From Felis catus (taxonomy: Eukaryota), in the NCBI RefSeq assembly GCF_018350175.1, contig NC_058368.1, forward strand, positions 46,316,001-46,380,000: a DNA stretch of 64,000 bases, read 5' to 3'. A model generated the notes under the pieces. That model worked only from the letters and a program-made list of their open reading frames with translations. It was not told where the DNA came from and did no database searches. This document shows positions 36,401 to 40,400 of this stretch, piece after piece. Each line of letters starts with the position of its first letter. Positions within the stretch are counted from its first letter, which is position 1. The position numbers and the translations under genes are program-made.

Positions 36401-36620
36401 AACAGATACAATACGGAACTTAAGATTAGCCTAATCTGTCTAATACTGTAACCCTGGCTCTACCTGGTTCTAACTACTGTAAGTGATTTTTCTCACAATT
36501 TATTTACTATCATCTGTTTCGAATTTAGAATTACTTGTGGAATAAAAAAATAGACTTAGAGGTAGTGGCCTAAGACGATGTTTGGCATAAGCCAAAACAG
36601 TCACGTAAGAAAACAATTAC

Positions 36621-36793
36621 CTTAATAACAGACGTCTCAACTCTGGAAGGGGGACTCTGAACGTGAGCTGCTGCCGCCATATTTGCAATGGTGCTGAGAT
36701 GGTTCATCTGGCTCATTGCCATGGTGACAGACGCTGGAGGTAGGCTGACGGGAATTAGAGGGTGGGGCATCATCATAAAAGGAAGTTCCAGTC
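36621..36793 (-). CDS. DACH1: DACH1 internal coding exon (exon 4 in the shorter-isoform numbering), 173 nt, phase 1 to 0
   Basis: Minus strand: ttttttatag|GA CTG GAA CTT ... TCT GTT ATT AAG|gtaatt. Encodes (G)LELPFMMMPHPLIPVSLPPASVTMAMSQMNHLSTIANMAAAAHVQSPPSRVETSVIK, recognised as DACH1. Confidence 0.97.
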
Positions 36794-37253
36794 CTATAAA
36801 AAATGCACAGGTCTCATCATTGCTCTGTTCAAATAAAACTATGAAACGTAGTGTTATCTCATTTATGAAAATGGTAAAGGGCATAAATCATTGAAAATTA
36901 AAGCATTAAAAAACGTTCTAATAATGATTGCCAAAGGAAAGATATTTGTCCTCTTTATATGCAACAATACCCACTCACCACTCAGGGAAACTAGCTTTGA
37001 AGCTAACCAGTTCGGTGCCATGTTTTATCACGTCACCATGCTCCATGCGTTCAATACAAATGGTCAATTCGTTGCTGCATTATTCTTCTGATCATTCTAA
37101 TTCTTGCTTAAAATATGAGGGTTTTATTTAACATATCACAATCAGTTATCTAAATGTAGTATCTCTTCGTTATGTCCTACATTTTACAATATAATGATTG
37201 GATATTTTTTTGTGGGCAACTGCCATTTTTAGTACCAAAAAATACCATTATAG

Positions 37254-37409
37254 AATTTGGCAGAAGGTGGCTCTGCTTGAGATGGTGGAGAGGTTGCCTA
37301 AGTGGAAGGCTATTAGTTCCAGGCATGTGGGGGTGGGTAACAGAAGCCTGAGATCTCTGTGATGGGCAAGAGGACAGTGTTTGCTTATCCCAAGAACCAT
37401 CACAGCTAC
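37254..37409 (-). pseudogene. DACH1: Decayed counterpart of the 156-nt (52-codon) DACH1 alternative cassette exon (probable pseudo-exon)
   Basis: Open frame (G)SCDGSWDKQTLSSCPSQRSQASVTHPHMPGTNSLPLRQPLHHLKQSHLLPN resembles the long-isoform insert that precedes GLELPF (recalled). Expected acceptor reads ccccacAA|GT. The expected donor position is followed by CT; AATG|GTATTT lies 8 nt further on. Confidence 0.8.
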
Positions 37410-40400
37410 TTGTGGGGAATGCACATAAGCAATTTGGATGCAATATTATTCCAAATCTTCTAATAGTTTATTTGAAATGAGGTTTTAAAAAGTATATCAC
37501 ATTTCGAGTTGGCCAAGTGATTTCTTGGAAAATAACCTCAAGTAAGTAAATTTCCCCTAAACCATATATTTTTTTTGTTTTTCTTTTTCTTATATAGTTC
37601 CTCAATTAAAAAAAATTCTACAATATTTATCTCACTTTTTGAGTCTAATCTAGTTTGAATAACCAAATTAAGATAAAATGGTCTCTTTTATATACCTAGA
37701 GAATTAATTACTTCTTAGAAGTGAAGCCCACTGGTAGTTGTAGTTATTCTTGTATTAAATGATATTCTAGCCACCATTCAGAGTTAAAGTTCCTCACTTA
37801 ATTCCACCACAAATCCTAAACATGGAATTATTAAATGCCCAACTCATTTAGACACAGCACAAAGAGCCTAAAAGATCACTTTACAAAGGTTAATAATGTC
37901 AAAGCAATATATTAAATATGTGTGCCTCAATAAATATATCACCTTTATTCAACTACAAAGAAACAAAAGTTGATGATTATGGCAATATAGTGTCAAAGTA
38001 AAAACAGTACATTTGAGAGCTTTCATTTTAATAATGAGGCCATGTTTTGGATTTCAGTAGATTTTTAAACACCTTAATAGGATACACCTTAGAAGGTATT
38101 TATGAATAATTTCAATTTAGACATGTTCCCCAATTAAATTAACACTAACTTATTTACTGAATCTGTTGAATATACAAACAACCCCCTTGAAGAAAATTTT
38201 TGTAATGTCCCTGTCAGCTTAATGAGTTTTCATTTCTTAAAAAAGGAAAAGAAATAATATTTTCATATAATATACTTAGAAACAGCAAAGTTGGTAAAAC
38301 TCCAATTTAAATGCTTTAGCTCCATTAAAAGCTTCATTGTAAAATCTCTATGACATAGTTTTTAATGAAGAATACTTAGTTACTGCCATGATTTTTTTCC
38401 ATTTACTTCATGAAGACAGTTAAGGTTCAATATAAATTCAAACTCATTAGCTCAATACTGTCTGAATCTTAGAGTAAATTGTTCAGAAGTGGGTAATGAA
38501 AACTCAATTCAAATTCTTCAGCAATCAAACAAAGCAATTTTATTAAACAATGAAAAGAATCAATTAAAGTGGATATCTTTATTATCTTTATTATTTTACA
38601 AGAAACCATGACAGCTTTTGGCTAAAAAAAAGTTTATAGCTTCATCCAGAAATGACTCACATAAAAGAAATTTCTCCAGCTTGTTCCTACACTATGATAT
38701 AAAAGTTCACTTCCATATTCACAAATGGATCTACTTTATTTCTCTACTCACACCCTTTTTGATGCTTATACGAAGGTCCTAGTCAAACATGCAAAAACTG
38801 TAAGTATGTGAATTTTTCAAACGTATGGTGTCAAGAAAATATTTGATGGTGAAACATGATAAAAATTCGACTCCACAATGCCTTTATCGAGGTATGTGCA
38901 AATTTTTTCTTTAAATGTTTACTTTTTATAGTATCATTTAAAACAAGTGTTGAGGCATAATCACTGACAATTGGTATAGAAATAACACTTTGGAATAAAT
39001 GTTATTTGAAAATGAAAACTGGATAGGGAATTTATAATTAATGGATAATTTTCCCTACACATTTCATTTAAAATACCAATAAATGCAAGCATTACATTTT
39101 CATAGTATGTTGCTTATTTGAAGATAATTGATGGACTGAGTACAGAAAAATACTCACATTCATTATTTTAAATTCAGTTTGAGTTCTGCTTATATCTATT
39201 ATCTACTTTTGTTTCTCTGTTCACTTGAACCAATTTCTCCTTTTATTTGAATTCTGATTGCCAGTTAATACATTGGAAAAAGTCATTTTTCCAAATATAT
39301 TTCAGTTTTACTCTCATAGTGGAGAAGCACTGTGACTATTTTTTTCACATTATCAAGGTATAAAATATTAAGCCAAACTTCTGACTGAATCATTCTGAAG
39401 CAGATTATAGACAAAATACTATCTATTTTCACATCTCTTTTGCATCACAGGGTATTAGTCCCTTGTGTGAGGGTAAATATCAATCATCCACATGTGAATT
39501 TTCCATAGCAAGTTGATAACACTAGATTGGATTTTCCCACTACATAAAATGCTCCTAGCCATCTCCACCAATCATCATTTGTTAAATACTCATGATGTTA
39601 GCTCATTTGGGTAATAAATAGAGCAAACAATTAAGAAACTAAGTCTGATGAAAAATATACAATATATAACTAAGTCAGCTGTAAGTGATTTCTGCATTAT
39701 TTATAACATCCTTTTCCTATTAGCATGAATAAATAAGAATTGAAAATAGGCCATTTCAGAACAAGACATACCCATAGTTATTAAATGTATGATTTCAAGT
39801 GCTTTGGTTTAAGCCAATATGTTTAGTGATATAAGCCAGTATATATGTACTATGCCTACATGCAAACATATATATATACACACTTGTATACCTTTAAAAT
39901 TAACGTTTACTACTGTGACCACAGGAAATCTTGCAAGAGACAGAAGATAAAATATATAGGAAATTCTAATATTTGGTAAGGAGAGTTAGAAACAAACAAA
40001 AAAAATACCTGATGCATCTCTCTTTCCCCATTCTTATTGAATCAAACTGTTTCTTGACTTTACAGTGGAAGAACAAGGTGAAGTTGATATAGCCTTCAGG
40101 TCCCCAAAGAACATATACTATCATAGGTTGTCAAGGCATGTATGTAAAAACTCATAAAACACAATAAAATTATAAGATGGTTTAAGCAAAGGAAAATGGT
40201 CATGGGTTCATGAAAAGACTCAGTGGATCCAACTGTTGATTACTTGACATTTGTATTCATATTTTAATGTCGGGAGGAAGGAACTGAAGGGAAAGAGATT
40301 TCCCATACCTAGTCTTACACACAGATTGTGGAGAAGCGCAGGAACAGTGTCAGGCTAGACAGCTGCTTACGTAGGTTCAGCTGCAGGTAGAACACAACAG

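What the first reader, a model, noticed from the sequence alone, without database searches (positions are those of the whole stretch)
37236..37420. The 52-codon DACH1 alternative exon appears splice-dead in this felid
Seen: a 156-nt open frame (37409-37254) 460 bp upstream of exon 4, encoding (G)SCDGSWDKQTLSSCPSQRSQASVTHPHMPGTNSLPLRQPLHHLKQSHLLPN. The in-frame acceptor reads ttccccacAA|GT rather than AG. After ...CCA AAT the sequence is TCTATAATG|GTATTT, as if an 8-nt AATTCTAT insertion had displaced the donor to 37245-37244. The two nearest AGs give starts at 37408 or 37405 and exons of 163 or 160 nt; both shift the frame and reach TAA at 37250-37248. Recalled, unverified: long human/mouse DACH1 isoforms carry a 52-aa insert at this position (human roughly GSSDGSWDKETLPSSPSQGPQASITHPRMPGARSLPLSHPLNHLQQSHLLPN). 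Against that recollection about 14 of 52 residues differ, while the neighbouring exons differ at about one. Inference: lineage-specific loss of the long DACH1 isoform, or conversion into an NMD poison exon, in an otherwise highly conserved developmental regulator.
Basis: partly seen in the sequence, partly recalled or inferred. Interest (0 to 1): 0.8.

Follow-up and report, generated by a model that had tools for sequence, protein, structure and literature searches.

The report
Decayed DACH1 alternative exon in cat
In this cat-family genome, an ancient optional 52-codon exon of the developmental regulator DACH1 has lost both of its splice signals to single-letter changes, so the longer protein form can no longer be made; this is an ordinary kind of lineage-specific exon loss.

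Summary
The open frame is real and is the DACH1 cassette exon. It hits unnamed mammalian genomic ORFs at E 3.9e-15 and a squirrel DACH1 protein at E 3.3e-16. It is the only copy found in the genome. Named proteins from bowfin, sturgeon, frogs, axolotl, turtles, birds, squirrel, goat and rat carry it.

The acceptor change is confirmed. Where three other mammals read Thr-Gly (so cAG|G), this genome reads ACA AGT, giving AA at 37411-37410.

The proposed 8-nt insertion is wrong. A gap-free alignment running from about 20 codons upstream to about 20 downstream, and a frame test, show no indel. The old donor (AAT G|GT) has mutated to AAT T|CT at 37254-37252. The GT at 37245-37244 is new.

No AG gives the conserved frame. 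Both nearby AGs give a frame that stops at TAA 37250-37248. The +52-residue isoform therefore cannot be made.

How far the loss extends among cats and other carnivores is also untested.

The residue divergence is not specific to this genome. Unnamed mammals whose junction codons still read as in the named species differ by as much.

Interest is low to moderate.

The parts
37254..37409 (-). Relic of the 156-nt, phase 1-1 DACH1 cassette exon. The frame is still open and encodes (S)SCDGSWDK...SHLLPN.
   Evidence: Homology: E 3.9e-15; E 3.3e-16, 68% identity against 82-98% for the other eight DACH1 matches on this contig at E 1e-8 or better. Named proteins carry the insert between ..NSSV-G and LELPF.
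37410..37411 (-). Former 3' splice-site dinucleotide, now AA. The codon here is AGT (Ser) where three other mammals have a Gly codon (GGN), whose first G is the G of the AG.
   Evidence: FPT-S-SCDGSW here against FPT-G-SSDGSW, FPT-G-NSDGSW and LPT-G-GSEGSW.
37252..37254 (-). Former last exon base plus 5' splice-site GT. It now reads TCT (Ser) where the others have a Gly codon (G|GT).
   Evidence: LLPN-S-IMVFF here against LLPN-G-TMAFF. Named proteins read ..LLPN-G-LELPF across the junction.
37406..37410 (-). Tandem AAG/TAG (aAGtAG), the only nearby AGs. They give exon starts at 37408 or 37405, both in the same non-conserved frame.
   Evidence: The pyrimidine fraction of the 17 nt upstream is 0.71 and 0.59.
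37244..37245 (-). New GT (ATG|GTATTT), a candidate cryptic donor 8 nt beyond the old one. The other mammals read ATG GCN here.
   Evidence: 3.6 bits on a crude matrix of my own; M-V-F here against M-A-F.
37248..37250 (-). TAA that ends the frame entered from either cryptic acceptor.
   Evidence: the 65-codon frame 37445-37248 ends ..ATFCQIL*.
37412..37467 (-). Conserved upstream intron flank, colinear with three other mammals when read in the exon's frame.
   Evidence: scores 91/113/46 in the colinear frame against at most 39 in the other two.
37180..37251 (-). Conserved downstream intron flank, colinear with three other mammals (..MxFF..TKNGSC).
36622..36791 (-). Next constitutive DACH1 exon (G)LELPFMMMPHP...ETSVIK, with a phase-1 acceptor.

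Best explanation
The segment is the relic of DACH1's ancient 156-nt cassette exon, which adds 52 residues between the exon ending ..DMNSSV and the exon starting LELPF. In this cat-family genome, point substitutions with no indel have removed both canonical splice signals. The acceptor AG is now AA (37411-37410). The last exon base plus donor GT is now T+CT (37254-37252). Because the upstream exon ends in phase 1 and no AG opens the conserved frame, the +52-residue isoform cannot be produced. The gene should make only the forms that join the upstream exon directly to 36791. I infer that the relic is now mostly or wholly skipped, making it a pseudoexon. Shown: homology, the positions of the old junctions, the three junction substitutions, and the frame consequences. 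Inferred: that it is skipped in RNA, and that the change is old and shared within the cat family.
For: 1. Identity and age of the exon. At least 15 of the 120 listed relatives (of 2177 hits) carry the insert at this junction. They include bowfin, sturgeon, frog, axolotl, tortoise, birds, squirrel, goat and rat.
2. Only one match to the insert was found in the 2.43-Gb genome at E up to 10.
3. The upstream exon ends ..AGT GTT G|gtaagt, in phase 1, 59 kb upstream.
4. A gap-free alignment with three unnamed mammalian genomic ORFs places Gly codons at both junctions in them and Ser codons (AGT, TCT) here.
5. The colinear frame scores best on both flanks.
6. None of the 8 AGs within 37347-37459 gives the conserved frame. 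Every other entry meets a stop (and my own reading of the third frame).
7. The same letters stand in runs of three other studies.
Against: The frame is still open, with no stop and no indel. That is not what long neutral decay predicts; my rough estimate is about a 1 in 10 chance.

Usable-looking cryptic sites sit 1 or 4 nt and 8 nt away from the old sites. They use the same pyrimidine tract and the same conserved flanks, so exon definition may persist.

Residue divergence does not single this genome out. It has 9 private residues; P0126 also has 9, and P0125 and rat have 6 each. A cat-versus-goat count with squirrel as outgroup gives 10 against 4, which is not significant (my count).

The comparison sequences P0123-P0126 are unnamed and are proteins. 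The third codon letters at the junctions are therefore inferred, not seen.
Confidence: 0.6

Rival explanations
1. The exon is still recognised, through the shifted sites: acceptor aAG|T at 37408 or tAG|C at 37405, and donor ATG|GT at 37246. It would then be a 163- or 160-nt frameshifting exon. Inclusion would end the reading frame at TAA 37250-37248, with at least three exon junctions downstream. The transcript would be degraded by nonsense-mediated decay, or would make a DACH1 that lacks its C-terminal half. On this reading an isoform switch has become an on/off dosage switch.
For: The cryptic sites exist and share the old pyrimidine tract. On my crude matrix the new donor scores 3.6 bits. 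My hand estimate for the old donor, rebuilt from codons, is about 2 bits, so the new one is no weaker. The intron flanks, which usually carry the regulatory signals of such exons, are still conserved and colinear. The TAA and the downstream exons at about 36791, 20927 and 17592 are in the window.
Against: An AAG acceptor followed by T is among the weakest forms (textbook knowledge). No RNA data were obtained. A frameshifting exon in a dosage-sensitive regulator would be expected to be selected against, or silenced further.
Confidence: 0.27
2. The lesions are an assembly error or a rare allele of one animal, and the species still has a working exon.
For: No reads were laid here. Contig-based indexes drop rare variants, so a second allele could be hidden.
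Against: All 92 sampled words of 36600-37480 are held by 14 DNA-type runs. These include 4 runs from 3 studies that are not flagged as a possible source. Three separate junction substitutions plus 9 private residues are not what a sequencing error looks like.
Confidence: 0.04
3. The long isoform is still made in frame by non-canonical means, such as A-to-I editing of the AA acceptor together with a non-GT donor.
For: Editing of AA to AI that creates an acceptor is known for ADAR2's own transcript (recalled, not checked here).
Against: The donor reads CT, which no known editing or spliceosome class uses. Two independent rescues would be needed.
Confidence: 0.02

Closest known systems
The DACH1 +52-residue cassette exon of other vertebrates. 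I recall it as the difference between human isoforms a and b. It is seen here in named squirrel, goat, rat, bird, turtle, amphibian and ray-finned fish proteins.
   Same: Same place in the gene, same length and phase. The peptide is homologous: 30 to 38 of 51 residues are identical to the nine compared. The flanking intron sequence is conserved.
   Different: Both splice dinucleotides are gone here, so it cannot be joined in frame.
Lineage-specific exon loss by splice-site mutation (pseudoexons, 'exon death'). This is a general class, named from established knowledge.
   Same: An exon that works in relatives, point mutations at AG and GT, and a host gene that is otherwise intact.
   Different: No stop or indel has accumulated yet in the old frame. 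Absence from RNA is not shown.
Poison (NMD-coupled) cassette exons, as in SR-protein genes. This is a general class, named from established knowledge.
   Same: If the cryptic sites are used, inclusion brings in a premature stop well upstream of the last exon junction.
   Different: Classic poison exons are conserved as such. This one would be a recent by-product of decay. Inclusion has not been observed.
NAGNAG tandem acceptors (established knowledge).
   Same: aAGtAG offers two acceptors 3 nt apart.
   Different: Here both lie out of the conserved frame, so the choice between them changes one codon only, and not the outcome.

Membership tests
DACH1 +52-residue cassette exon | Lies in the intron between the exon ending ..NSSV(G) and the exon starting LELPF | tested here: met
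   Upstream exon at G000:C1:46412204-46412374, relic at 46353243-46353410, next exon at 46352603-46352794. Window coordinates.
DACH1 +52-residue cassette exon | Peptide homologous to the insert of named DACH1 proteins | tested here: met
   75, 71 and 59% identity to the squirrel, goat and rat inserts. E 3.3e-16 and E 3.9e-15.
DACH1 +52-residue cassette exon | 156 nt, phase 1 at both ends, open frame | tested here: met
   Phase of the neighbouring exons.
DACH1 +52-residue cassette exon | AG before and GT after the 156 nt | tested here: not met
   AA at 37411-37410 and CT at 37253-37252. The junction positions are fixed.
DACH1 +52-residue cassette exon | Included in some mRNAs | not testable with these tools
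Pseudoexon (decayed exon) | Loss of the canonical splice sites of an exon that works in relatives | tested here: met
Pseudoexon (decayed exon) | Signs of neutral evolution: stops, indels, a raised replacement rate | tested here: inconclusive
   No stop or indel. There are 9 private residues, but P0126 has 9 as well. dN/dS could not be computed without other species' DNA.
Pseudoexon (decayed exon) | Absent from mature RNA | not testable with these tools
Poison (NMD-coupled) exon | Usable AG and GT around the segment | tested here: inconclusive
   aAG|T, tAG|C and ATG|GTATTT are present but weak on a crude matrix. No validated splice-site scorer was at hand.
Poison (NMD-coupled) exon | Inclusion gives a premature stop more than about 50 nt upstream of the last exon junction | tested here: met
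   TAA at 37250-37248 in the entered frame. Further exons lie downstream.
Poison (NMD-coupled) exon | Inclusion seen in RNA and raised when NMD is blocked | not testable with these tools
   No RNA evidence.

The most novel reading that the evidence does not exclude
A cassette exon kept since before ray-finned fishes and tetrapods parted has been turned, in the cat lineage, into a frameshifting switch. Both splice sites slid by a few bases: +1 or +4 at the acceptor and +8 at the donor. The conserved intronic control elements stayed. The tissues that once chose the long DACH1 isoform would now instead turn DACH1 down by nonsense-mediated decay.
Probability: 0.25. Interest if true: 0.5.

Novelty: new member of a known kind. 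Interest (0 to 1): 0.3.

Why it matters
DACH1 is a strongly conserved developmental regulator of eye, limb, kidney and vessels (established knowledge). This optional exon has been kept from bowfin to birds with only 3 to 7 changes in 51 residues. A mammal that cannot make the long form is a natural knockout of that isoform. It suggests the insert is dispensable, at least in this lineage. That fits the fast evolution of the insert in mammals generally. It also warns annotators not to transfer the long isoform to cat genomes by homology. If the relic is still spliced in, it would be a clean example of an isoform switch turned into a dosage switch. No function of the insert was found in the papers searched, which limits the weight of the finding.

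Tried and rejected
- **Read laying.** I sent four RNA runs (X17-X20) on 36500-37700. There is therefore no junction, depth or letter evidence.
- **RNA-run shares.** I draw nothing from them, nor from their labels.
- **Homology search with the cat peptide.** The 'longer' search found no hit. The 'near' search with the four-row alignment A1 found no hit either. The index also missed P0123-P0126, which exist, so these blanks say nothing.
- **Exact look-ups.** Eight ORF versions from this place, on both strands, were tried. None is in the collection.
- **Metagenome pattern scan.** It gave 6 matches, all chance matches by my reading of their translations.
- **Prokaryote-genome scan with A1.** Of 113 pattern matches, one passed tblastn: a 16-residue chance match in a Paenibacillus.
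- **Earlier findings of the scan.** There were no look-alike windows and no note mentioning DACH1.
- **Papers.** Four searches were run. No paper holds both 'DACH1' and 'Felidae'. I read the DACH1 passages of PMC4195499 and PMC8350246; neither describes this exon.
- **Rejected reading: the 8-nt insertion**.
- **Rejected as an argument: residue divergence as proof of relaxed constraint**.

Full report
**What is there.** On the minus strand, 37407-37255 translates to SCDGSWDKQTLSSCPSQRSQASVTHPHMPGTNSLPLRQPLHHLKQSHLLPN. This lies inside a 96-codon stop-to-stop frame, 37467-37180.
- ..ttccccacAA|GTAGCTGT.., with AA at 37411-37410.
- AGs at 37410-37409 and 37407-37406.
- ..CCAAATTCTATAATG|GTATTT.., with GT at 37245-37244.

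The next exon, (G)LELPFMMMPHP...ETSVIK, is 36791-36622. It has tttatAG|GA at its start and AAG|gtaatt at its end. Two further DACH1 exons lie at about 20927 and 17592.

The window is G000:C1:46316001-46380000 of a 2.43-Gb, 71-contig assembly. The upstream exon (..HGADSENGDMNSSV, ending GTT G|gtaagt) lies outside the window, 59 kb upstream of the segment. Both neighbouring introns are therefore phase 1. Any exon placed between them must begin with two bases that complete a codon and must be a multiple of three long.

**It is the DACH1 cassette exon, and that exon is old.** A search with the neighbouring exon returned 2177 relatives, of which 120 were listed. At least 15 of the 120 carry a 52-residue insert exactly between ..NSSV-G and LELPF. 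By my reading the number is 19, counting one partial and three variant forms. They are named as bowfin, sturgeon, clawed-frog relative, axolotl, tortoise, several birds, squirrel (P0035), goat (P0029) and rat (P0050).

The squirrel protein matches this place at E 3.3e-16 and matches nowhere else in the genome for those residues. The peptide alone finds three unnamed mammalian ORFs at E 3.9e-15 to 6.2e-11 among 1.84 billion proteins.

Identity to squirrel is 68% here. The other eight DACH1 matches on this contig at E 1e-8 or better are 82-98% identical.

**Where the old splice sites were, and what happened to them.** P0123, P0125 and P0126 are ORFs called on genomic contigs. P0126 has three cluster-mates. 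All are unnamed. They read straight through the exon and both flanks in the exon's own frame.

Aligned with the cat frame, they show no gap from about 20 codons upstream to about 20 codons downstream.
- **Upstream junction.** They read FPT-G-SSDGSW, FPT-G-NSDGSW and LPT-G-GSEGSW. The cat reads FPT-S-SCDGSW. The Gly codon's first G is the G of the acceptor AG, and its last two bases open the exon. This agrees with ..NSSV-G-SSDGSW in the named proteins. The cat's AGT therefore means AG became AA.
- **Downstream junction.** They read LLPN-G-TMAFF. The cat reads LLPN-S-IMVFF, from AAT TCT ATA ATG GTA TTT. The Gly codon holds the last exon base plus the donor GT. This agrees with ..LLPN-G-LELPF in the named proteins. 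The cat's TCT therefore means G|GT became T|CT at 37254-37252.

The cat GT at 37245-37244 sits in a Val codon where the others have Ala (GCN), so it is new.

As a direct test of the 8-nt insertion idea, I scored the cat's downstream flank in all three frames against the three ORFs:

| Frame | Score against P0123 / P0125 / P0126 |
|---|---|
| Colinear | 29 / 51 / 27 |
| Frame an 8-nt insertion predicts | 10 / 12 / 13 |

Upstream, the colinear frame scores 91/113/46, and the other two frames score at most 39. There is no insertion. Both sites were lost to point substitutions.

**Consequences for the reading frame.** Eight AGs lie between 37459 and 37347. By my arithmetic, none starts an exon in the conserved frame. 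The two nearest, aAG|T (start 37408) and tAG|C (start 37405), form a tandem pair 3 nt apart. Both enter the frame that ends ..ATFCQIL-TAA at 37250-37248. The third frame also meets a stop early, by my own reading.

With the new donor the exon would be 163 or 160 nt long. The +52-residue isoform therefore cannot be made by canonical splicing.

The old one, rebuilt from codons, would score about 2 bits by my hand estimate. Both are weak, as is usual for an optional exon.

**Is it real DNA?** All 92 sampled 31-letter words of 36600-37480 are held by 14 DNA-type runs of one coded organism, from seven studies. Ten of these runs are flagged as possible sources of the assembly. Four are not: X1, X2, X3 and X5, from three studies. 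I could not lay reads. Notes by earlier agents on other windows of this genome call it a cat-family genome. I did not test that.

**What the residue changes do and do not say.** Against 11 distinct ungapped inserts, the cat has 10 private residues. I dropped one frog form that is a residue shorter and merged duplicates. Four of the private residues sit in columns invariant in all others: E9Q, G18R, H38Q and Q44K. Rat, whose insert is annotated as used, has 8 private residues, 5 of them in invariant columns.

With the three unnamed mammals added, making ten sequences, the private-residue counts are:

| Sequence | Private residues |
|---|---|
| Cat | 9 |
| P0126 | 9 |
| P0125 | 6 |
| Rat | 6 |
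| Bowfin | 4 |
| P0123 | 3 |
| Bird | 2 |
| Goat | 1 |
| Tortoise | 1 |
| Squirrel | 0 |

P0125 and P0126 differ from P0123 at 13 and 16 of 51, and the cat at 14. Bird, tortoise and bowfin differ from each other at only 3 to 7. The insert is therefore well kept outside mammals and evolves fast within them.

The cat's divergence is at the high end but is not unique. A cat-against-goat count with squirrel as outgroup gives 10 against 4 (my count), which is not significant. The case for loss rests on the junction letters, not on the peptide.

**Most likely reading and rivals.**
- **Decayed exon, about 0.6.** The long isoform is lost and the relic is mostly skipped.
- **Frameshifting exon, about 0.27.** The conserved flanks, the shared pyrimidine tract and the new donor keep the exon visible to the spliceosome. 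Inclusion then brings in a premature stop and leads to decay of the message or a truncated protein.
- **Error or rare allele, 0.04.**
- **Non-canonical rescue, 0.02.**

Two observations count against long neutrality. The frame is still open, and there is no indel.

**What is left open.** No RNA evidence was obtained. No DNA of other cats or carnivores was within reach. The change therefore cannot be dated, and 'in felids' is unproven beyond this organism. The comparison ORFs are unnamed proteins, so the third codon letters at the junctions are inferred from the annotated junctions of the named species.

Four paper searches found nothing on this exon's function, and no paper holding both 'DACH1' and 'Felidae'. 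I saw only search listings, plus the DACH1 passages of two papers.

**Verdict.** This is a real but ordinary kind of event: lineage-specific loss of an optional exon by splice-site substitutions.

Noticed in passing
window 37412-37520 and 37180-37251 (minus strand): The intron flanks of the relic exon are colinear and well conserved with three other mammals when read as codons. Upstream, 20 of 26 positions match P0125, which is better than the exon itself at 32 of 51. This is typical of flanks that carry splicing control elements.
   Followed up: partly
window 36650-36665 (exon 36791-36622): This exon reads ..ANMAAAAHVQSP. Of the 120 stored sequences that hold this motif, 116 read ..AAAAQVQSP. 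Three read H: the window's own and the two axolotl isoforms.
   Followed up: partly
G000:C47:71981302-72271882 (+): The paralogue, presumably DACH2, matches the squirrel query exon by exon but has no match to the insert residues 118-169 at E up to 10. A mudskipper DACH2-like protein (P0003) does carry a related ..GSECSWEKERL.. stretch before its LELPF-type exon. The cassette may therefore predate the DACH1/DACH2 split.
   Followed up: no
proteins P0046 and P0051 (Engystomops), P0043: The frog records show further variants at this junction. One has an extra RTRCHSSLIRRQIIS stretch between the insert and LELPF. In another the insert follows ..IPPTG directly, without the ..NSSV exon.
   Followed up: no
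insert peptides: The insert differs at only 3 to 7 of 51 residues among bird, tortoise and bowfin. Among mammals it differs at 6 to 22. Constraint on this peptide seems to have relaxed in mammals as a whole.
   Followed up: partly
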